Shown here: piece by piece, positions 1 through 8,147 of the stretch | Numbering within the stretch: position 1 is the stretch's first letter | Layout: each line of letters opens with the position of its first letter | Source: a virus | Taxonomy: Duplodnaviria; Heunggongvirae; Uroviricota; Caudoviricetes | Virus record (IMG/VR): IMGVR_UViG_3300028996_000031 | DNA length: 8,147 bases | Direction: 5' to 3' (one strand) | Made by a program: the position numbers and the translations under genes | The notes under the pieces: model-generated | Databases searched by the model: none | Seen by the model: the letters and a program-made list of their open reading frames with translations, nothing else | Told to the model about the DNA's origin: nothing

Positions 1-419
1 GTAAAGCACCATATTGGGCCAGTCGCTCCCGTGCTGTTCGACCGTCAGACTGGGAGAAATGGACAGAGGTAACGGAAGTTGTACCAGTCGTTTGCGATGT
101 ATGTAAAGGGAAGGGAGTGATAAGTGCCAGGTGTCGTTGTGGTGGAAAGGGAGAGGTACTGGACCGCAAAGCCACAAGCGAGCGTGGTGTGCCAGTATTT
201 AAAATCTGCGAACGTTGCAGCGGAAATGGATTTTCCACGGTACCGTCTACCACAGTATATAAAGTTGTACTGAAGCGGATACCCGAGCTACATGTCAGGA
301 CATGGACGCGTAATTGGAAGCCGTTTCTTGATTCTCTGGTTGACATTTGCCACCAGGAAGAGCGTAAGGCCGATATTGCTTTTCAGAATGTGACAAGTTT
401 TGGTGATGATGTGAACTAA
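1..419 (+). CDS. Late-gene antiterminator Q-like protein, 5'-truncated by window edge (C-terminal ~139 aa present)
   Basis: Open frame from position 3 to TAA at 417-419. Contains three Cys-pair motifs (CDVCKGKG, CRCGGKG, CERCSGNG) consistent with a zinc-binding domain. Lies immediately upstream of a terminator hairpin and the lysis cassette, the canonical Q position in lambdoid phages. Family assignment is positional plus motif-based, not verified by alignment. Confidence 0.55.
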   Translation, partial: KAPYWASRSRAVRPSDWEKWTEVTEVVPVVCDVCKGKGVISARCRCGGKGEVLDRKATSERGVPVFKICERCSGNGFSTVPSTTVYKVVLKRIPELHVRTWTRNWKPFLDSLVDICHQEERKADIAFQNVTSFGDDVN

Positions 420-512
420 GCTTAGGGTTTTTGCGACATTGCACTTGATTTTGTCCGAATCTGTCATGTATGCTTTTAAACATGCGGAATAATGCGTAAA
501 TGATTTTGATAG
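420..512 (+). promoter_or_regulatory. Putative late promoter (pR'-like) and Q-utilisation region
   Basis: 93-bp AT-rich spacer between Q stop and a terminator hairpin. Contains weak sigma70-like hexamers (e.g. AATAAT at 488-493) but I could not pin a convincing -35/-10 pair. Call is mainly positional. Confidence 0.3.
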
Positions 513-536
513 AAGCCCCTTTCGGGGCTTTTATCA
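513..536 (+). terminator. Intrinsic terminator, tR'-like
   Basis: Hairpin with GCCCC (515-519) / GGGGC (524-528) stem, TTTC loop, extended by A-T pairs 513-514/529-530, followed by TTTTATCATTT. Located about 95 bp downstream of the Q-like stop. Confidence 0.6.
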
Positions 537-601
537 TTTCAGCCCTTTTAAAAAGCGTTCGAAATTATGGAATTCAAGTTCATCCGCTGTCGATGAGTAT
601 T

Positions 602-1459
602 TTATTTTGTTTGCGATGGGACGNNNNNNNNNNNNNNNNNNNNNNNNNNNTTACTGGCTTCATGTTTCAGTTTTTTTAATCGCTTGATTCGTTCTTCGAT
701 TGAACTGGCAATTTTGGCAACATTAGAAATTTCTGGGCTTGGGGCTGTTTGTAGATCAATACACTGAATTTTTTTTAGATCTTCTTTGAGCGCAACAAAA
801 AAATCACGAAGATTGTTTTCTGGTAAAAGAACATGACTAAATGATACTTTTCCTATGTAGAATTCACTTATTGCCTCTCCAGACTCGCGCATGTGTTCAT
901 TCATTGCGAACAGAATTGTTTTGGTATTCTTATCAGTTTCCACTTCAGAAAGGGTTACAAGGCCTGTCTGGCTCTTGGTCAAAAAACGAATTTCTGTAGC
1001 ACCAAGTCTTCCGGAGTAATTGGAATTTTTACTATTTTCGATGGTAGAAGATAGATAATCTATTGTGGGTTTGATATTTCGTATCGTTTCAATATTTTTT
1101 TTCCACGCTTCACATTTACTTTTTGCGGTGCTAATAATTTCCCGATTGGTTTCGAGTTGCATAAATTTATTGAAACTAAGAACGTTTTCACCAAATTCCA
1201 CACCAAATTCGTTTTTACCACATTTATTTCCGATGTTGGTTTCAATGCCACTAGATGTTTTTACAATATAACCCATTTGATGTGGTTGGTTGCAACCAGT
1301 TAGACCACAGTGGATTTCTTCTTTAAATTTGTAGTAACCAATTATCTCCTCAAGTTGTTGAACTCCTTTGTCTATAGTGGTGACAAAGTTTGGTCTGGAT
1401 ATAATTTCCTCCCAGTTTTCAAGTTTCTCGATGCCGTTTTCAGTTCTGAGAAAAATCAT
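602..1459 (-). CDS. Orphan hypothetical protein (~285 aa), AT-rich, antisense to the late operon; C-terminus crosses an N-run
   Basis: Long minus-strand ORF. ATG at 1459 is preceded by GGAG with 6-nt spacing (the ATG at 1471 lies inside that SD, so 1459 is preferred). Codon usage is strongly A/T-biased relative to flanking phage genes. No P-loop, no hydrophobic segments and no family I recognise. The 3' end (stop at 602-604) is read across the 27-N run at 624-650 and is uncertain. Confidence 0.7.
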   Translation of the reverse strand: MIFLRTENGIEKLENWEEIISRPNFVTTIDKGVQQLEEIIGYYKFKEEIHCGLTGCNQPHQMGYIVKTSSGIETNIGNKCGKNEFGVEFGENVLSFNKFMQLETNREIISTAKSKCEAWKKNIETIRNIKPTIDYLSSTIENSKNSNYSGRLGATEIRFLTKSQTGLVTLSEVETDKNTKTILFAMNEHMRESGEAISEFYIGKVSFSHVLLPENNLRDFFVALKEDLKKIQCIDLQTAPSPEISNVAKIASSIEERIKRLKKLKHEASXXXXXXXXXXVPSQTK

Positions 1460-1682
1460 GAATCGCTCCATTTGAAAGTGGACCGTTTATTTTATCGGCA
1501 TAAAAACGAGAACACCACAAGTTATTTTATTACCGAATACTTGGTGAAGAGGGGGAACTTCGCCACACAGCTTAAACCCGCCGCCGTGCGGTTTTTTTTG
1601 TGCCACTTATCTCGGATAGACATGGTGAATGCGCTGGTGGAGGAAGTAAGAGTGATTTTTAATCAGTTGATTTTTTGAGTGC

Positions 1683-1711
1683 TTGCAACATTGATTTCGT
1701 AACGTTATTAT
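1683..1711 (+). promoter_or_regulatory. Sigma70-type promoter for the tRNA array
   Basis: TTGCAA (1683-1688), 17-bp spacer, TATTAT (1706-1711), then a GC-rich discriminator CCTGCGCCC (1712-1720) as in stable-RNA promoters. The first tRNA begins at 1721. Confidence 0.5.
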
Positions 1712-1720
1712 CCTGCGCCC

Positions 1721-1796
1721 GGCCCTTTAGCTCAGTGGTGAGAGCGAGCGACTCATAATCGCCAGGTCGCTGGTTCAAATCCAGCAAGGGCCACCA
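1721..1796 (+). tRNA. tRNA-Ile2 (anticodon CAU, lysidine type) or tRNA-Met; 76 nt with encoded CCA
   Basis: Cloverleaf folded by hand: acceptor GGCCCTT/AAGGGCC, D-arm GCTC..GAGC, anticodon loop CTCATAA (CAT at 1754-1756), T-loop TTCAAAT, discriminator A plus CCA. C4-G69 and C5-G68 in the acceptor stem and overall resemblance to ileX-type tRNA favour Ile2. Confidence 0.85.
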
Positions 1797-1797
1797 G

Positions 1798-1874
1798 CCG
1801 CCACTAGCTCATCAGGAAAGAGCGTCAACCCTTTAAGTTGAGTGTGCGAGGTTCGAGTCCCCGGTGGCGGTCCA
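1798..1874 (+). tRNA. Atypical tRNA-like gene, anticodon TTT (Lys-like) with C instead of U at position 33; possibly a variant or pseudo-tRNA
   Basis: Cloverleaf: acceptor CCGCCAC/GTGGCGG (starts with C1-G72), D-stem GCTC/GAGC with GG in the loop, anticodon stem TCAAC/GTTGA (perfect), loop CCTTTAA (1830-1836), T-loop TTCGAGT with one A-C mismatch in the T-stem, discriminator T plus CCA. One substitution from a Lys(UUU) loop, two from an Arg(UCU) loop. Confidence 0.55.
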
Positions 1875-1876
1875 GT

Positions 1877-1952
<76 letters not shown>

Positions 1953-1955
1953 TAT

Positions 1956-2030
<75 letters not shown>

Positions 2031-2036
2031 GTTAGA

Positions 2037-2082
2037 GTCTTTCAGTCTGCGATGATGGGAAATCCCGGAGTGACTGAAAGAC
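2037..2082. repeat. Perfect 11-bp inverted repeat (GTCTTTCAGTC / GACTGAAAGAC) around a 24-nt spacer containing a GGGAAATCCC mini-palindrome
   Basis: Arms at 2037-2047 and 2072-2082 are exact reverse complements. Begins 7 nt after the last tRNA. Confidence 0.7.
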
Positions 2083-2090
2083 GTTTAAGT

Positions 2091-2161
2091 TATGAATGAT
2101 CGCCTTTTTTTGCAAAATTGCTGTGCAGAAATACTAACCTTCGAGCAGGCGATCATTCATA
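2091..2161. repeat. Perfect 14-bp inverted repeat (TATGAATGATCGCC / GGCGATCATTCATA) flanking a 43-nt spacer
   Basis: Arms at 2091-2104 and 2148-2161 are exact reverse complements. The left arm is followed by T7 (2105-2111). Confidence 0.7.
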
Positions 2162-2236
2162 AGCACTCTGCTTTTATTCCGATTAACTGTGGGTGGTTTG
2201 TTGGATAGAGTGCTTTCCTTTCTGTATATATCGTTT

Positions 2237-2262
2237 CGCCCGCGTTTGCGGGTTTTTCTTTT
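2237..2262 (+). terminator. Intrinsic terminator between the tRNA array and the holin gene
   Basis: CCCGC (2239-2243) / GCGGG (2248-2252) stem with GTTT loop, followed by TTTTTCTTTT (2253-2262). Lies 60 bp upstream of the S start. Confidence 0.6.
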
Positions 2263-2322
2263 CAAATCCCTTTCATTTCTCAGTGTAAAACTACGCCATC
2301 CGTTATTTGCGGAGGTGAGGCT

Positions 2323-2538
2323 ATGAAATCCATGGACAAAATTTCAACGGGCATTGCCTACGGCACCTCCGCAGGCAGTGCTGGCTACTGGTTTTTACAG
2401 TGGCTTGATCAGGTCAGTCCTTCACAGTGGGCTGCGATTGGTGTACTGGGGAGTCTGGTTCTGGGCTTCCTGACTTATCTGACAAATCTGTACTTCAAAA
2501 TCAGAGAAGACAAGCGTAAGGCTGCACGGGGAGAGTAA
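2323..2538 (+). CDS. S: Class II holin, phage 21 S-type pinholin (71 aa) with dual-start motif
   Basis: Strong SD GGAGGTGAGG (2311-2320). Protein starts MKSMDKIS, i.e. Met1-Lys2-Ser3-Met4 (Met codons at 2323 and 2332), matching the S21 antiholin/holin dual-start arrangement. Two hydrophobic segments, the first Gly/Ala/Ser-rich (SAR-like), and a charged C-tail. Sequence matches my recollection of S21/EssQ-family holins. Confidence 0.9.
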
Positions 2539-2542
2539 TTCA

Positions 2543-2887
2543 ATGACTCAAAACTATGAACTGATTGTGAAAGGGATCCGCAATTTTGAGAATAAAGTTA
2601 CGGTAACTTTAGCGTTACGGGACAAAAAACGCTTTGACGGTGAAATTTTTGACCTGGACATCTCGCTGGACCGTGTTGAAGGTGCCGCGCTGGAGTTTTA
2701 TGAGGCAGCAGCCAGAATGAGAATCAGACAGGTATTCCTGGATGTTGCTGCCGGGTTATGTGTAGGGGATGAGCAGTCGCCGGAAAAGCGCCCCATAATT
2801 TTAGAGGCGCAGAATGTGTGGATAACCTACAAAGGAAAGCCACCAGGAAGAATTACTGATTCTCTGAAGACTCCACCGAAATGGTAA
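2543..2887 (+). CDS. Hypothetical protein (114 aa), positionally equivalent to YdfR (DUF1327-type) between holin and endolysin
   Basis: ATG at 2543 with SD GGGGAGAG 7 nt upstream, 4 nt after the holin stop (translationally coupled). Phage-like codon usage. Stop at 2885-2887 just before the 58-N run. Family name is from recalled Qin gene order (essQ-ydfR-rrrQ), not from alignment. Confidence 0.65.
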   Translation: MTQNYELIVKGIRNFENKVTVTLALRDKKRFDGEIFDLDISLDRVEGAALEFYEAAARMRIRQVFLDVAAGLCVGDEQSPEKRPIILEAQNVWITYKGKPPGRITDSLKTPPKW

Positions 2888-2960
2888 TTTTACCAGCATA
2901 TTNNNNNNNNNNNNNNNNNNNNNNNNNNNNNNNNNNNNNNNNNNNNNNNNNNNNNNNNNN

Positions 2961-3125
2961 GGGGTTGCGTGATTCAAGCAGGAGCGATGCCAGTGTTGGT
3001 TGCATTTGTTCTCTGGGAATTGATAAGGCCAAATATGAAAATGCAACAGTGAGGGCATTTACATCATCCCGAAGCTTTGAAATGCAGTCGAGCAACTCCT
3101 GTAGAGAAATGGTGTTATTGTCCAT
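2961..3125 (-). CDS. Small antisense ORF with strong RBS (at least 55 aa; 90 aa if the frame is continuous across the N-run to 2853)
   Basis: Minus-strand ATG at 3125 preceded by AAGAGGA with 6-nt spacing (reverse complement of 3126-3140). Protein begins MDNNTISLQELLDCISKLRDDVNALTVAFSYLALSIPREQ. The 3' portion is interrupted by the N-run at 2903-2960. Confidence 0.35.
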
Positions 3126-3240
3126 AAATAATCCTCTTGATTGTCTTTACCTTTTCCCCGCCTGATTCAACAGGCCGGGACAGATAAACATATCCAGGGT
3201 TCAGAAACCGATAAATCCTGATAAATATCCATCCATATCC

Positions 3241-4262
<1,022 letters not shown>

Positions 4263-4499
4263 ATGTAGATTAACATTAAATCGGATTATTTTTAGTGCTG
4301 AATGTGAAATTTAAATAAAAAGGACTCTTCCATGAGTCAAAATCCTTGAAATCTTAAGGGTAAGATAAAAGGTCATTAGACAGAATGACACGTTTTATTA
4401 ATAAATAAAGCTATTGTTTCATTCGTGTGTTTTTCTTTACAAAAGTAATCCTTGCTATGGTTGGTTAATCATGCGTTAANNNNNNNNNNTGTTCTGGTT

Positions 4500-4540
4500 T
4501 GTTACAAAATTATCTGAAGCAGTCATTGTTATAATTTTAT
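4500..4540 (+). promoter_or_regulatory. Putative csp promoter (extended -10 TGtTATAAT at 4527-4535) with AT-rich upstream region
   Basis: TG at 4527-4528 followed by TATAAT at 4530-4535; weak -35. Would give a ~95-nt 5'UTR, typical of cold-shock genes. A 10-N run at 4480-4489 lies just upstream. Confidence 0.4.
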
Positions 4541-4637
4541 TATTTGTACCTCTTGAGATTTCCTTGTTGGTTTTTCTCTCTGATATTTTTTTCGGACCAT
4601 TCTGCCCAAGGGCTAACTTCTTCAAAAGGTAATAATG

Positions 4638-4850
4638 ATGTCTAACAAAATGACTGGTTTAGTGAAATGGTTTAACCCTGAAAAAGGTTTTGGTTTCATC
4701 ACGCCGAAAGATGGTAGCAAAGATGTGTTTGTCCATTTCTCAGCTATTCAGAGCAACGATTTCAAAACGTTAACTGAGAATCAGCAAGTCGAATTTGGTA
4801 TTGAGAACGGACCTAAAGGCCCCGCGGCTGTTCATGTAGTGGCACTTTGA
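4638..4850 (+). CDS. cspI: Cold-shock protein, CspA family (70 aa), CspI-like
   Basis: [44 protein letters not shown]... contains the RNP1 (KGFGFI) and RNP2 (VFVHF) motifs of cold-shock domains. Matches my recollection of Qin-encoded CspI. Second of two tandem ATGs chosen on homology grounds. Confidence 0.9.
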
Positions 4851-5054
4851 GGTAGAAAATATTACAAACCATATTCACTTTAGATGCCCGTGTTGCCATG
4901 GTTCTCAGTATAGAACATCATCTTTTGATGTTTCTGACAGGAATCCTTTCGGGGCAAAATGTATCTTTTGTAAATCAATGATGATTACATTTGATAATAT
5001 TTCACAATACTTAAATGTTAGCCGTCTGTCGTTAGATTTAAGAAAGTGAAAATG

Positions 5055-5077
5055 AAGGCTCCTTCGGGAGCTTTTTT
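5055..5077 (+). terminator. Intrinsic terminator downstream of csp
   Basis: AAGGCTCC (5055-5062) / GGAGCTTT (5067-5074) stem with TTCG loop, followed by a T-run to 5077. Confidence 0.6.
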
Positions 5078-5121
5078 GCTTAGTGTCTAGTCGATGGATA
5101 CTCACATATTACGGTAACATC

Positions 5122-5352
5122 ATGAAAAAAATAATAGTTTTTTTTAACTCTGAACCAGCAATGGTAGTGCCAGTGATGACCGGAGTTAACACCATCATGC
5201 GTGAATATCCAAATGGCGAAACAACACATCTCACTGTAATGGCTGCAGGGTTTCCATCTCTGACCGGAGATCATAAAGTCATTTATGTAGCAGCGGATCG
5301 ACATGTAACTTCAGAAGAAATTCTGGAAGCAGCAATGAGACTCTTGAATTGA
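5122..5352 (+). CDS. Hypothetical small protein (76 aa) between csp and gns
   Basis: ATG at 5122 to stop at 5350-5352; protein-like composition (MKKIIVFFNSEPAMVVPVMTGVNTIMREYPNGETTHLTVMAAGFPSLTGDHKVIYVAADRHVTSEEILEAAMRLLN). No convincing SD, and the upstream GTG of the track ORF abuts the terminator. Occupies the position of ynfN in Qin / ymcE in the cspG-gnsA locus; family not verified. Confidence 0.4.
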   Translation: MKKIIVFFNSEPAMVVPVMTGVNTIMREYPNGETTHLTVMAAGFPSLTGDHKVIYVAADRHVTSEEILEAAMRLLN

Positions 5353-5446
5353 TTTCATTCTAATGCCTTGATAATAAAGGATAATCATCTTTATCTGTTT
5401 GTGCGAAATTTAGACTGTCGTATGTTGATTATTGCGATGTTTCATC

Positions 5447-5475
5447 TTATCTTTTATACGTTTGCTCCATATAAT
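5447..5475 (+). promoter_or_regulatory. Putative promoter for gns (perfect -10 TATAAT at 5470-5475)
   Basis: TATAAT at 5470-5475 in an AT-rich region about 50 bp upstream of the gns start codon. The -35 is weak (TTATCT). Confidence 0.35.
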
Positions 5476-5524
5476 TGACACTACTGTGTACCAGGAAAGT
5501 CATAACAGACTAAAAGAGGAAATG

Positions 5525-5703
5525 ATGAACATTGAAGNNNNNNNNNNAAAACAAAAACAGAAGCAGATATTTCTGAATATATAACAAAAAAAATTATTGA
5601 GCTTAAGAAAAAGACCGGGAAAGAAGTTACCAGTATCCAGTTTACTGCACGGGAAAAAATGACTGGTCTTGAAAGCTATGATATCAAGATTGATTTAATC
5701 TAG
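5525..5703 (+). CDS. gnsB: GnsA/GnsB-family protein, interrupted by a 10-N run
   Basis: SD AAAGAGGA upstream. Translation MNIE...[N-run]...KTKTEADISEYITKKIIELKKKTGKEVTSIQFTAREKMTGLESYDIKIDLI matches the Gns-family signature I recall (TGKEV..IRFTAREKMTGLESYD.KI). Reading frames on either side of the N-run differ by 1 nt, so the N-run length is not exact. Confidence 0.8.
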
Positions 5704-5765
5704 TATGTTTATAGTATTAGCATCAATTTCTTATCAGATGCTATTCAACAATACAATTTACCCAT

Positions 5766-5790
5766 AAACCTCGTTTTTACGGGGTTTTGT
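5766..5790 (+). terminator. Putative terminator after gns
   Basis: AAACCTCG (5766-5773) / CGGGGTTT (5780-5787) stem (8 bp, one G-U) with TTTTTA loop, followed by T-rich sequence. Confidence 0.45.
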
Positions 5791-5998
5791 TATATTTAAA
5801 CATTACCGAATAGATATAAATCTCGATAGTCGGTGGTATTGGTTGTGTGACAATACCTAGTCTTTCCGGTATGCCTGGAGAGAATACAAACGACAGATTA
5901 TGTAAGGGAAACGCGCTGAAACTTTCACACTTTCATGCTGAGTGATTTGACGTTATATTTTTAGCCGCAAGTGAAGAGCAAACGCATGGAGCGACAAA

Positions 5999-6205
5999 AT
6001 GCATAAAGATCCATACACTGATGACTCATCCTTGGATCAGGTCCGTGTAAAAACTATGCTCACTAGCACCATTTCTATGAGTTATCCGGATGTTGTAATT
6101 GCATGTATAGAACATCAAGTGTCTCTGGAAGCATTCAGGGCAATTGAGGCAGCGTTGGTGAAGCACGATAAGAATTCGAAGGATTATTCCCTGGTGGTTG
6201 ACTGA
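5999..6205 (+). CDS. Hypothetical protein (68 aa)
   Basis: ATG at 5999 with GGAG 7 nt upstream. No family recognised ([68 protein letters not shown]). Confidence 0.45.
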
Positions 6206-6458
6206 TCGCCATAACTGCTAACCATTCAAACTATTTCACCTGTGACAGAGTCAATATCGCATTCTGTCACTGTCAGGCTAATACAGAACTACAATTCAAC
6301 TACTGCAATGCCTCGTAATTAGGTGAAGTTACAATATCGTCCTGTTCGGATGCCAACTGCATTTCTGAAGATAAGGCGTTTATGACTCACATATTTGTCC
6401 CACACGTTCGCCAGTCCTGTGCGGGGTGGGAGGGGAGGTAAAGAAACCGGGATATTCA

Positions 6459-6650
6459 TTATTCATCACTTTTGATTGATGTAGATGCTCTCTTTTCTGA
6501 CGTTAGTCTCCGACGGCAGGCTTCAATGACCCAGGCTGAGAAATTCCCGGACCCTTTTTGATCAAGAGCGATGTTAATTTGTTCAATCATTTGGTTAGGA
6601 AAGCGGATGTTGCGGGTTGTTGTTCTGCGGGTTCTGTTCTTCGTTGACAT
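6459..6650 (-). CDS. Ribbon-helix-helix (CopG/Arc/MetJ-like) DNA-binding protein (63 aa)
   Basis: Minus-strand ORF from ATG at 6650. Basic N-terminus (MSTKNRTRRTTTR) followed by NIRFPNQMIEQINIALDQKGSGNFSAWVIEACRRRL, the classic beta-strand/helix/G-x-S/N turn/helix RHH pattern. The track ORF extends to a GTG at 6779, which I consider less likely. Confidence 0.65.
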   Translation of the reverse strand: MSTKNRTRRTTTRNIRFPNQMIEQINIALDQKGSGNFSAWVIEACRRRLTSEKRASTSIKSDE

Positions 6651-6840
6651 GAGGTTGTCCCGTATTCTGTGTCGCTGATTTGTATTGTCTGAAGTTGTTT
6701 TTACGTTAAGTTGATGCGGATCAATTAATACGATACCTGCGTCATAATTGATTATTTGACGTGGTTTGATGGCGTACACGCACGTTGTGATATGTAGATG
6801 ATAATTATTATCATTTTGTGGGTCCTTTCCGGCGATCCGA

Positions 6841-6870
6841 CAGGTTACGGGGCGGCGACCTCGCGGTTTT
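6841..6870. other. Lambda-type cohesive end site (cosN); 12-nt cohesive end GGGCGGCGACCT at 6850-6861
   Basis: CAGGTTACG|GGGCGGCGACCT|CGCGGTTTTTCGCTATTTATGA matches, from memory, the junction of the lambda right end (...CGACAGGTTACG) and left end (GGGCGGCGACCTCGCGGGTTTTCGCTATTTATGAAAA). Lies about 215 bp upstream of the terminase small-subunit gene. Confidence 0.75.
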
Positions 6871-7077
6871 TCGCTATTTATGAGATTTTTTGAGGGGGTG
6901 GTTGTTGTTTAATTGTTTGGTATATCTAATTGATAAGTAAGGTGAAAATAAAATAAATACAACAACCTTACGATGTGCTTTGATGTCATTAATGTGAAAA
7001 AATTAAATGATATCAAATGGTTTTGTAAAAACACATGGTTGTTGTATCGCTTTTTATCGATGACTTATGGAGAGGAG

Positions 7078-7584
7078 ATGGCCTTTTTATTGAATAAAAG
7101 TGATATGGCCTCCTCCATCGGTATCTCTGTTCAGGCATTTGATAAATGGGGCGTTCCTCCTGTCGAGCGTCGGGGGAGGGAAGTTTTTTATGACGTTAAA
7201 ACTGTACTGGAGATAGATCGCGAGCGGCGACAACACAATCATAGAACACCTGATGACGGGGGCGATCTGGAGGAAAGGCTGCTTCGGGCCAGAGCTGAAC
7301 TGACAGAAGAACAGGCCGTAGCTCAAAAACTTAAAAATCAGGTAACCGAAGGTAAGCTCATCGATTCAGACTTCTGCGTTTTCGCCCTCAGCAAGCTGGC
7401 GATGGCATTGTCCAGTACGCTTGATTCTATTCCGTTATCCATGCAGCGACAGTTCCCGGATTTAACGCCACGTCATCTTGACCATCTGAAAACCCTTATT
7501 GCGAAGGGCGCAAATCAGTGTGCGCGGGCAGGGGATAAATTACCGGATTTGCTGGATGAATATATCAGAGCAACAACTGAATAA
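7078..7584 (+). CDS. nu1: Terminase small subunit (Nu1-like, 168 aa)
   Basis: ATG at 7078 preceded by GGAGAGG (5-nt spacing). The N-terminus LNKSDMASSIGISVQAFDKWGVPPV parallels the lambda Nu1 N-terminal DNA-binding segment (VNKKQLADIFGASIRTIQNWQEQGMPV), and the C-terminal half (FCVFALSKLA...SIPLSMQRQFPDL) also aligns by eye. The track ORF start at 6973 is treated as an artefactual extension. Confidence 0.85.
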   Translation: MAFLLNKSDMASSIGISVQAFDKWGVPPVERRGREVFYDVKTVLEIDRERRQHNHRTPDDGGDLEERLLRARAELTEEQAVAQKLKNQVTEGKLIDSDFCVFALSKLAMALSSTLDSIPLSMQRQFPDLTPRHLDHLKTLIAKGANQCARAGDKLPDLLDEYIRATTE

Positions 7585-8147
7585 TCTGATGGCTGCCGTT
7601 TCGGTTGCGCTGCAGCCTCTGGTCAGGGTTGTACCGATGACGGCAGTTGAATGGGCTGACCAGTATTATTATCTGCCGAAAGAATCCTCATACGGTGACG
7701 GCGAATGGAAAACGCTGCCGTTCCAGATCGCCATCATGAACAGTATGGGGAATGATCAGGTCCGCACTGTTAATCTGATTAAATCTGCCCGTGTTGGCTA
7801 TACAAAGATGTTGCTGGGGGTGGTCGGGTATTTTATTGAGCATAAATCCCGAAACAGTCTGCTTTTTCAGCCCACGGATTCTGCCGCTGAAGATTTTATG
7901 AAGTCTCACGTGGAGACGACGATTAGGGACGTGCCATGCCTGAAAGACCTTTCCCCATGGCTGGGTCGTAAACATCGTGATAATACCCTCACGCTGAAAC
8001 GCTTTTCATCGGGCGTCGGTTTCTGGTGCCTGGGCGGCGCTGCCGCCAAAAACTACCGTGAAAAATCCGTGGATGTGGTCTGCTATGACGAACTTTCCTC
8101 GTTCGAACCGGATGTTGAAAAAGAGGGTTCGCCAACCCTGCTGGGGG
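7556..8147 (+). CDS. A: Terminase large subunit (gpA-like), 3'-truncated by window edge
   Basis: ATG at 7556 overlaps the 3' end of nu1 as in lambda. Translation MNISEQQLNNLMAAVSVALQPLVRVVPMTAVEWADQYYYLPKESSYGDGEWKTLPFQIAIMNSMG...KSARVGYTKMLLG... closely parallels the lambda gpA N-terminus (MNISNSQ...TAVEWADANYYLPKESAYQEGRWETLPFQRAIMNAMG...), recalled from memory. Confidence 0.9.
   Translation, partial: MNISEQQLNNLMAAVSVALQPLVRVVPMTAVEWADQYYYLPKESSYGDGEWKTLPFQIAIMNSMGNDQVRTVNLIKSARVGYTKMLLGVVGYFIEHKSRNSLLFQPTDSAAEDFMKSHVETTIRDVPCLKDLSPWLGRKHRDNTLTLKRFSSGVGFWCLGGAAAKNYREKSVDVVCYDELSSFEPDVEKEGSPTLLG

What the first reader, a model, noticed from the sequence alone, without database searches (positions are those of the whole stretch)
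602..1459. AT-rich orphan gene inserted antisense between Q and the lysis cassette
A ~285-aa minus-strand ORF with a good SD and markedly lower GC than the surrounding phage genes sits in the Q-to-S moron slot, where Stx phages carry stx. It has no signal peptide, TM segment or P-loop and no family I can recognise. This location, orientation and composition are typical of horizontally acquired accessory genes (anti-phage defence, abortive infection or virulence), so it is the strongest single candidate for an undescribed function here. Its C-terminus is uncertain because of the N-run at 624-650.
Basis: partly seen in the sequence, partly recalled or inferred. Interest (0 to 1): 0.7.

Follow-up and report, generated by a model that had tools for sequence, protein, structure and literature searches.

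The report
Unnamed zinc-motif prophage cargo gene beside Q
The flagged ORF is a real, intact 306-residue prophage cargo gene from a large protein family that nobody has named or characterised; its position suggests, but does not prove, that it protects the lysogen against other phages.

Summary
The ORF is real, but its 3' end was misread. The 27-N mask at 624-650 replaces 22 real bases, which shifts the frame. The true gene is window 534-1459 (minus strand), 306 aa, identical to WP_097479045.1 of E. coli F719. It is not an orphan. It matches PHROG 7003 (function unknown), and an exhaustive profile search found 1,005 clusters at 50% identity across Gamma- and Betaproteobacteria. Every source calls it hypothetical. 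Neither it nor 48 diverse relatives show a reproducible match to any Pfam, NCBIfam or PADLOC model. A high-confidence AlphaFold model (pLDDT 92.8) has no meaningful PDB match, either whole or as the N-terminal domain. The N-terminal beta domain is conserved and carries an invariant C-x4-C-x3-H...C motif. The helical C-terminal two-thirds diverge quickly. In phages the gene sits convergent with the antiterminator Q and upstream of the late terminator, so it is not in the stx slot itself. Stx2f and Stx2e-like phages carry both this gene and stx. Near-identical phage backbones carry alleles only 26% identical, or nothing. The active phage Nef carries a copy with a stop at codon 11, so the gene is dispensable. 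My best reading is a lysogen-expressed accessory gene, probably for phage exclusion, but no function is shown.

The parts
534..1459 (-). True coding sequence of the accessory gene: 306 aa, identical to WP_097479045.1. It spans the N mask, and the stop TGA is at 534-536.
   Evidence: 100% match to E. coli F719 and its RefSeq CDS. PHROG 7003, E = 3e-96. dN/dS 0.10.
624..650 (.). N mask. Its 27 Ns replace 22 real bases, which creates the false stop at 602-604.
   Evidence: The query spans 1301 nt and the F719 match 1296 nt. The real sequence was read.
1202..1459 (-). Codons 1-86, the conserved N-terminal beta-rich domain.
   Evidence: AF2 strands 2-6, 9-13, 36-50, 59-68, 73-77 and helix 78-85. 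Mean pairwise identity is 41.5% here against 21.6% for the rest.
1217..1312 (-). Codons 50-81, HCGLTGCNQPH...NIGNKCG. C51, C56, H60 and C80 are a putative CCHC zinc site.
   Evidence: These four residues, with Y43, G63, G77, G81 and F85, are invariant in 49 representatives down to about 20% identity.
537..1201 (-). Codons 87-306, the fast-diverging helical domain with a small alpha/beta insert (residues 167-204). N276 is its only invariant residue.
   Evidence: AF2 model, conservation, pN 0.133 against 0.060 for the N-domain.
1466..1469 (-). Shine-Dalgarno GGAG, 6 nt before the ATG.
   Evidence: Read directly from the sequence. Conserved in the Salmonella copies.
1489..1494 (-). TAAAAT, a candidate -10 element of the gene's own promoter, 29 nt before the ATG. 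The -35 is weak.
   Evidence: Conserved in the E. coli, Salmonella and Phytobacter upstream regions; the Yersinia upstream region has a TAAAAT offset by a few alignment columns. The consensus promoter scan did not call it, so it is only a candidate.
507..536 (.). GC-rich hairpin between the convergent 3' ends of Q and this gene. It is probably a bidirectional terminator and overlaps the stop codon.
   Evidence: -22.3 kcal/mol, z = -6.0 on the plus strand; -18.8 kcal/mol, z = -4.6 on the minus strand.
1..419 (+). 3' part of the antiterminator Q gene (PF03589), the convergent neighbour.
   Evidence: Pfam Antiterm, E = 8e-29. RefSeq annotation.
1580..1600 (+). tR'-like intrinsic terminator of the short late-promoter transcript. 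It marks the start of the Q-dependent late unit, downstream of this gene's start.
   Evidence: Terminator scan. This segment is shared with phiP27 and other Stx phages. The role of such terminators is described in PMC7547250 (abstract).

Best explanation
Window 534-1459 (minus strand) is a self-contained prophage cargo cassette, or "moron". It comprises a probable promoter of its own, one 306-aa cytoplasmic protein, and a hairpin terminator shared with Q. It is inserted between the Q antiterminator gene and the late promoter/terminator region.

Because it points against both the early-right and the late transcription units, it is most likely transcribed independently of Q, in the lysogen. The protein has two modules. 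The first is a conserved N-terminal beta domain with an invariant Cys-x4-Cys-x3-His...Cys motif, presumably a structural zinc site. The second is a rapidly diverging helical domain.

I commit to this reading: it is a non-essential accessory protein that benefits the lysogen, most probably by excluding or aborting infection by other phages. It would do so by binding rather than by catalysis. The constant zinc domain would hold a conserved partner or nucleic acid, and the variable helical domain would set specificity.

Shown: the gene is real, intact and under purifying selection; it is dispensable; it is mobile; it belongs to no known family.

Inferred: expression in the lysogen, zinc binding, and the defence role.
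For: - Real gene: 100% match to an annotated CDS, dN/dS 0.10, pLDDT 92.8.
- Accessory and dispensable: it is present, replaced or absent in near-identical backbones. The upstream gene is 92% identical and Q 88%, while the cargo is only 25.6% identical. The slot is empty in CP027586. The active, transmissible phage Nef (46 kb, inserted at ssrA; PMC6731689) carries it with a stop at codon 11.
- Fixed counter-orientation: in 56-59 of 79 IMG/VR contigs the immediate 3' neighbour is a convergent Q of either of two unrelated families. Other copies lie beside the repressor, pointing against the neighbouring early genes.
- Cassette features: GC 0.357 against 0.47-0.49 in the flanks, a hairpin with z = -6, and a conserved TAAAAT and SD.
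- Two-module evolution: the N-domain is 41.5% identical on average, the C-domain 21.6%. The invariant residues are C51, C56, H60 and C80 plus glycines and aromatics. No conserved acid/base set is visible that would suggest a catalytic site.
- Other locations resemble accessory or defence niches: the end of a satellite-like element, next to an HTH/ParE-type pair, next to an AbiJ-domain gene, and in an element carrying Arc repressors and an Mrr-type nuclease.
Against: - There is no experimental or homology evidence for defence. PADLOC gives nothing for the protein or for 48 relatives.
- The census of neighbours outside phages shows mostly housekeeping genes and only sporadic defence genes. No enrichment statistic was computed.
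- The consensus scan called no promoter.
- Zinc binding rests on sequence conservation only. I could not inspect model coordinates.
- Some copies are pseudogenes, so selection for the gene is not universal.
- The 2025 Brenes & Laub screen of E. coli prophage defences could not be read.
Confidence: 0.4

Rival explanations
1. It is a regulator of the phage's own development. For example, it could modulate Q-dependent late transcription or lysis timing, either through the protein or through convergent transcription into Q.
For: It is tightly linked to Q in most phage copies, across two unrelated Q families. Its start lies within about 70 nt of the region that must hold the late promoter, which suggests back-to-back promoters.
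Against: - Family members also sit beside repressors, in a satellite-like element, and as solitary genes between housekeeping genes with no Q nearby.
- The active phage Nef has a stop at codon 11.
- The slot is empty in a related prophage.
- Alleles only 26% identical serve 88%-identical Q proteins.
- No HTH or other DNA-binding family is detected.
- A strong hairpin separates it from Q.
Confidence: 0.15
2. It is a host-directed lysogenic-conversion factor unrelated to phage defence, such as a cytoplasmic modulator of host physiology or virulence.
For: It is cargo next to stx in Stx2f and Stx2e-like phages. It has moron-like composition and orientation. Nef lysogens were reported to gain a fitness advantage (PMC6731689), although Nef's copy is truncated.
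Against: - It has no signal peptide or TM segment.
- The family is spread through environmental Alteromonas, Thermomonas, Polaromonas, Variovorax and others, which argues against a host-animal-specific role.
- The Nef copy is a null allele, so it cannot explain Nef's benefit.
Confidence: 0.12
3. It is a selfish or addictive element, such as a toxin-like or mobility-associated gene, that persists by its own spread rather than by benefiting phage or host.
For: It occurs as solitary single-gene islets between core genes. Alleles are swapped with a recombination break inside Q. It is AT-rich. Resolvase and integrase genes lie nearby in some loci.
Against: No nuclease, transposase or toxin family matches. 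There is no conserved partner or antitoxin gene. Purifying selection acts across genera.
Confidence: 0.08
4. It is a decaying or non-functional ORF.
For: Nonsense and frameshifted copies exist.
Against: The ORF is intact here, dN/dS is 0.10, full-length homologues number in the hundreds, and the fold is predicted with confidence.
Confidence: 0.02

Closest known systems
PHROG 7003 (phage protein family of unknown function)
   Same: Full-length match, residues 1-269 against profile positions 1-272 of 309, E = 3e-96. The window protein is a member.
   Different: The family carries no annotation, so membership says nothing about function.
Lambda-type morons expressed from the prophage, such as bor beside the lysis genes (own knowledge of lambda biology; Hendrix/Juhala moron concept)
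   Same: Optional single-gene cassette. Composition differs from the flanks, orientation opposes the lytic operon it sits in, and it has a terminator hairpin.
   Different: There is no sequence or fold relationship. Bor is an exported lipoprotein, whereas this protein is cytoplasmic. Lysogen expression was not tested here.
stx operon of Stx phages
   Same: Cargo in the Q-to-holin interval of lambdoid or P27-like phages. It co-occurs in phi467 and STEC308.
   Different: stx lies downstream of the late terminator and tRNAs on the late strand and depends on Q. This gene lies upstream of that terminator, converges on Q, and is on the opposite strand.
Single-protein prophage defences such as BstA of Salmonella phage BTP1 (own knowledge) and GiPD474 of Gifsy-1 (PMC12724215)
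   Same: About 300-aa cytoplasmic proteins encoded singly in prophage accessory slots. Some family members also lie in the immunity region.
   Different: BstA has a KilA-N domain and GiPD474 a ParA-like Walker A ATPase. This protein has neither, and it has no tested phenotype.
Prophage superinfection-exclusion proteins (lambda RexAB, P22 SieA/SieB, HK022 Nun; own knowledge)
   Same: The proposed logic is the same: a prophage-expressed protein blocks other phages.
   Different: No homology. Rex and Sie proteins are membrane-associated, and Nun is a small RNA-binding peptide sitting at the N position.

Membership tests
PHROG 7003 | Significant full-length match to the family profile | tested here: met
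   E = 3.2e-96, 323.5 bits, residues 1-269.
The CCHC-motif ~300-aa family defined here (alignments A2/A3) | Invariant C51, C56, H60, C80 with G63, G77, G81, F85, and a single-domain-pair architecture of about 300 aa | tested here: met
   All are present in the window protein. 172 representatives at E <= 1e-30, nearly all 280-330 aa.
Zinc-binding protein | Four ligands arranged tetrahedrally around a metal; metal content | not testable with these tools
   Only ligand conservation and their placement at strand ends and a helix N-terminus in the secondary-structure string are available. There are no coordinates and no biochemistry.
Any Pfam / NCBIfam family | Score above the curated cut-off | tested here: not met
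   The best hits are KIF9 (13.6 bits, cut-off 31.9) and NF033205 (16.4 bits, cut-off 40). Among 49 relatives, no family is hit by more than one member.
Known or candidate anti-phage defence proteins (PADLOC-DB v2.0.0) | Match to a defence-protein model | tested here: not met
   0 families for the protein. Only single-member noise hits among 49 relatives. Systems described after 2023 are not covered.
Any solved structure | Significant sequence or fold match | tested here: not met
Phage moron (accessory cassette) | Present or absent between otherwise similar phage genomes | tested here: met
   Slot empty in CP027586. Occupied by a 26%-identical allele in L015, L047 and L048. Occupied here.
Phage moron (accessory cassette) | Own promoter and terminator | tested here: inconclusive
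   Strong hairpin at 507-536 and a conserved TAAAAT and SD, but the consensus scan finds no promoter.
Phage moron (accessory cassette) | Base composition unlike the flanks | tested here: met
   GC 0.357 against 0.487 and 0.474.
Phage moron (accessory cassette) | Expressed from the repressed prophage | not testable with these tools
   No transcript data were found.
Phage core / essential gene | Required for the lytic or lysogenic cycle | tested here: not met
   Phage Nef makes particles, infects and lysogenises (PMC6731689) with a stop at codon 11 of this gene.

The most novel reading that the evidence does not exclude
The protein founds a new single-gene anti-phage immunity family. It would have a zinc-binding fold not seen before and would occupy a Q-proximal hotspot of lambdoid and P27-like prophages, including Stx2f and Stx2e-like phages. 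Highly divergent alleles would be swapped as specificity cassettes.
Probability: 0.3. Interest if true: 0.7.

Novelty: new variant of a known kind. Interest (0 to 1): 0.5.

Why it matters
If the protein does exclude other phages, it would add a widespread defence family (about 1,000 clusters at 50% identity) with no detectable relative among solved structures or catalogued defence systems.

It would also define a second cargo hotspot in lambdoid phages, between Q and the late promoter. That hotspot sits right next to stx in Stx2f and Stx2e-like phages and could influence which phages can superinfect STEC.

A ready natural experiment exists. The Nef phage of mouse-gut E. coli carries a null allele in a K-12 background.

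If the protein has no such role, it is one more conserved phage gene of unknown function.

Tried and rejected
**Family and structure searches that found nothing**
- Pfam, NCBIfam and PADLOC on the protein and on 49 diverse relatives gave only noise.
- PDB by sequence profile, with the full protein and with the N-domain, gave nothing.
- AFDB50 was unavailable.

**Domain fusions and partner genes**
- A profile search with the N-domain, looking for fusions to effector domains, returned only fragments, so no alternative architectures were seen.
- I looked for a conserved partner gene. All-against-all comparison of neighbours found only backbone genes: Q, primase, and a small phage protein with an NPCDGYH motif. 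Candidate partners have no Pfam family.

**Neighbourhoods outside phages**
- A census of 129 flanking ORFs in 27 non-phage loci gave a mixed picture and no convincing defence-island signal.

**Literature**
- Searches by accession, by PHROG id and by topic found no paper on this family.
- GiPD474 (PMC12724215) looked promising but is a ParA-like ATPase.
- Brenes & Laub 2025 is not held.

**Other**
- Rfam found nothing in the gene-to-tRNA spacer.
- The alternative start at 1471 (MERFMIF...) was rejected because all homologues start at MIF/MIT and the SD serves 1459.

Full report
**1. The observation**

GGAG lies 6 nt upstream. Every homologue begins MIF/MIT. RefSeq annotates the same start in an identical sequence.

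The 3' end is an artefact of masking. Window 400-1700 matches the chromosome of E. coli F719 (NZ_OY754392.1) at 100% identity, but over 1296 bases rather than 1301. Reading that record shows that the 27 Ns at 624-650 replace 22 real bases. The frame in the window is therefore wrong downstream of the mask.

The real gene runs to a TGA at window 534-536 and encodes 306 aa (WP_097479045.1, "hypothetical protein"). The ORF is not disrupted.

Composition is as described. GC is 0.357, against 0.487 in Q and 0.474 in the lysis genes. There is no P-loop and no hydrophobic segment.

**2. Is it a real gene?**

Yes, on four grounds:
- The E. coli and Salmonella copies differ at 60% of synonymous sites but only 11% of non-synonymous sites, giving dN/dS of 0.10.
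- The word-indexed search found about 100 clusters at 90% identity.
- The exhaustive profile search found 1,005 representatives at 50% identity with E <= 1e-3, and 172 with E <= 1e-30. Nearly all are 280-330 aa and match end to end.
- AlphaFold2, run on an alignment of 24 sequences, gives pLDDT 92.8 and pTM 0.78.

**3. What the protein looks like**

Residues 1-86 form a beta-rich domain that ends in a short helix. From residue 87 the protein is helical, with long helices at 87-128 and 241-271 and a small alpha/beta insert at 167-204.

Across 49 representatives, down to about 20% identity, the invariant residues are Y43, C51, C56, H60, G63, G77, C80, G81, F85 and, in the C-terminal part, only N276. 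The pattern C-x4-C-x3-H...C places two ligands in the turn after a strand, one at the start of the next strand, and one at the N-terminus of a helix. That arrangement is typical of a structural zinc site. Zinc binding here is an inference from sequence only.

The N-domain is much better conserved than the rest. Mean pairwise identity is 41.5% against 21.6%, and pN is 0.060 against 0.133. I see no conserved set of acidic, basic or histidine residues that would suggest catalysis.

**4. Comparison with what is known**

Every search for a known relative came back empty:
- Pfam, NCBIfam and PADLOC find nothing for the protein.
- When 49 diverse members were scanned one by one at E <= 0.1, no Pfam or PADLOC family was hit by more than one member. 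The hits are noise.
- Profiles of the whole protein and of the N-domain find no PDB sequence.
- Foldseek against the PDB has a best E of 0.27.
- AFDB could not be searched.

The only positive result is PHROG 7003, a family of unknown function (E = 3e-96). All public sources call the proteins hypothetical. No paper in the library mentions the accessions or the PHROG.

**5. Where it sits in this window**

The order along the window is:
- Q antiterminator (PF03589, ends at 419)
- a strong hairpin at 507-536 (-22.3 kcal/mol, z = -6)
- the gene, pointing leftwards
- about 120 nt of spacer
- a tR'-like terminator at 1580-1592, which is shared with phiP27 and other Stx phages
- four tRNA genes at 1721-2030
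- the holin gene at 2323

The cassette therefore lies between Q and the late promoter/terminator. It is not inside the Q-dependent late unit, which is where stx lives.

Phage phi467 (Stx2f) has Q, then this gene at 98.8% identity, then stxAB, tRNAs and S. The STEC308 prophage has Q, a divergent family member, a tRNA and then stxA2. So the two cargo slots are adjacent but distinct.

Upstream of the ATG, a TAAAAT hexamer at 1494-1489 (minus strand) and the SD are conserved between the E. coli, Salmonella and Phytobacter copies; the Yersinia upstream region has a TAAAAT offset by a few alignment columns. The -35 is poor, and the consensus scan did not call a promoter. The gene's own promoter is plausible but unproven.

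**6. Where relatives sit**

The same convergent position next to Q is seen in:
- Salmonella prophages
- a Serratia prophage with a different Q family (DUF1133) and different neighbours
- Yersinia, Morganella, Phytobacter and Proteus
- 56-59 of 79 IMG/VR viral contigs (this sample is biased towards the enteric subfamily)

Other phage copies lie beside the repressor and point against the neighbouring early genes. Examples are Klebsiella phage ST13-OXA48phi12.2, Pseudomonas phage Atpa001, and about seven IMG/VR contigs. Further copies lie:
- next to an HTH/ParE-type pair in Burkholderia phi644-2
- at the end of a satellite-like element carrying integrase, primase, small terminase and capsid genes
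- in an element with Arc repressors, a DNA methylase and an Mrr-type nuclease

Outside phages the gene occurs as a solitary islet between housekeeping genes, for example after folB or after nrdAB, and in other loci close to housekeeping genes such as rpsB or dnaE. Known defence genes nearby are only sporadic: AbiJ-domain, ImmA/IrrE-HTH and DUF3800. There is no conserved partner gene.

**7. Evidence that it is optional, swappable cargo**

- Phages with almost the same backbone carry a 314-aa family member (WP_000576620.1) in the same slot that is only 25.6% identical. In these phages the upstream 285-aa protein is 92% identical and Q is 88% identical, with the homology break inside the 3' end of Q.
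- A related prophage has the slot empty.
- Only 15 of 5,426 complete E. coli genomes hold the window's allele over at least 80% of its length.
- Mouse-gut E. coli strains (M8, and the IGC resident and its evolved K-12 invader) carry the gene with GAA to TAA at codon 11.
- In the K-12 invader this prophage lies next to intA/CP4-57, which is at ssrA. It therefore matches the 46-kb phage Nef described as inserted at ssrA. Nef forms particles, infects and lysogenises in the mouse gut (PMC6731689). The full-length protein is thus not needed for the phage's own cycle.
- phi467's copy differs by two single-base indels in A8/T8 runs. These could be sequencing errors or real inactivation.

**8. Interpretation**

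Shown:
- The gene is real, intact and under purifying selection.
- It is a two-module cytoplasmic protein with a conserved Cys/His motif.
- It has no known relatives by sequence or by fold.
- It is optional cargo at fixed slots in prophages, always pointing against the lytic transcription around it.
- It is dispensable.

Inferred:
- It is expressed in the lysogen from its own promoter.
- It binds zinc.
- It acts by binding rather than by catalysis.
- Its benefit is exclusion of other phages.

The exclusion reading fits five observations: the orientation, the two preferred slots (next to Q and next to the repressor), the allele swapping, the pattern of a fast-evolving specificity-like domain on a constant domain, and the occurrence on a satellite and beside toxin-antitoxin, Abi or restriction genes.

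It stays unproven. PADLOC is silent, the non-phage neighbourhoods are mostly housekeeping, and I computed no enrichment statistic. I give it 0.4.

The rivals are:
- a regulator of the phage's own late development (0.15), weakened by the Nef null allele, the Q-less contexts, and alleles 26% identical serving near-identical Q proteins
- a host-directed conversion factor (0.12)
- a selfish or addictive element (0.08)
- a dead ORF (0.02)

**9. Novelty and score**

The family already exists in databases as an unannotated cluster, so the gene itself is not a discovery. What is new:
- the corrected gene model
- the recognition of a large family with an invariant CCHC motif and no structural relative in the PDB
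- the definition of a Q-proximal cargo slot distinct from the stx slot
- the allele-swap and natural-null observations, which make the family directly testable

I rate it a new variant of a known kind (a prophage accessory gene and candidate defence gene), with interest 0.5.

Noticed in passing
window 624-650, 2903-2960, 4480-4489, 5538-5547: The N masks do not preserve length. The first replaces 22 bases with 27 Ns and so shifts the reading frame. ORFs that cross the other masks may be misread in the same way.
   Followed up: partly
window 1-8147: The window is a mosaic. The left part (tested for 400-1700) is 100% identical to a P27-like prophage of E. coli F719. Positions 2310-8147 are about 98% identical to a Qin/DLP12-type lysis-to-terminase region (rrrQ, rzpQ, ydfR) in other strains. 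No complete E. coli genome in the collection holds more than 80% of the window.
   Followed up: partly
window 4492-4896: A cspA-type 5'-UTR thermoregulator (Rfam RF01766, 113 bits) with a cold-shock-domain gene at 4635-4850. It lies in an AT-rich stretch downstream of the Rz-like gene and looks like another cargo gene.
   Followed up: no
window 1721-2030: Four tRNA genes (anticodons CAT, TTT, TGT, TCC) lie between the tR'-like terminator and the holin gene. RefSeq annotates the CAT one as tRNA-Ile, ARAGORN as tRNA-Met.
   Followed up: no
window 2853-3125 (minus strand): A second AT-rich antisense ORF sits inside the lysis cassette, between the DUF1327 gene and the lysozyme gene. It is partly hidden by the 2903-2960 mask. 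A 93-aa hypothetical protein is annotated at the same position in the F719 lysis cassette (not compared with this ORF), where the DUF1327 gene is marked as a pseudogene.
   Followed up: no
L049-L051 (E. coli IGC_EcoliInv_1.1, IGC_RcoliRes_1.1, M8): The Nef prophage of mouse-gut E. coli (46 kb, at ssrA) carries this gene with a premature stop at codon 11. RefSeq annotates a 245-aa remnant that lacks the Cys/His motif.
   Followed up: yes
L002 (phage phi467, Stx2f), gene positions 358 and 819: The phi467 copy is annotated as two CDSs because of a 1-nt deletion and a 1-nt insertion in A/T homopolymer runs. These may be sequencing errors or phase-variable-like inactivation. The window gene has T8 runs at 769-776 and 1095-1102, and the masked stretch at 624-650 hides a third.
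   Followed up: partly
L015, L047, L048 (E. coli phage vB_EcoS-611R1; strains AUSMDU00002545 and STEC308): A 314-aa family member (WP_000576620.1), only 25.6% identical, occupies the same slot in a near-identical backbone. In STEC308 it lies directly upstream of a Stx2 e/i/l/k-subtype stxA2 gene that is followed by an IS2 element.
   Followed up: yes
L010 951-1853: A 22%-identical member lies at the end of a satellite-like element (integrase, AEP-type primase with AAA_25, small terminase, capsid). A 197-aa gene of unknown function lies just upstream on the same strand.
   Followed up: partly
L008, L023, L037, L041 (3' side of the family gene): A small convergent ORF of about 74-93 aa with an NPCDGYH...LW..LP motif overlaps the 3' end of the family gene in four unrelated loci. 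It has no Pfam match and is probably a phage backbone gene rather than a partner.
   Followed up: partly
window 6459-6779 (minus strand) and 6973-7584: A DUF3950 gene and a Nu1-type small terminase gene mark the start of the packaging module.
   Followed up: no
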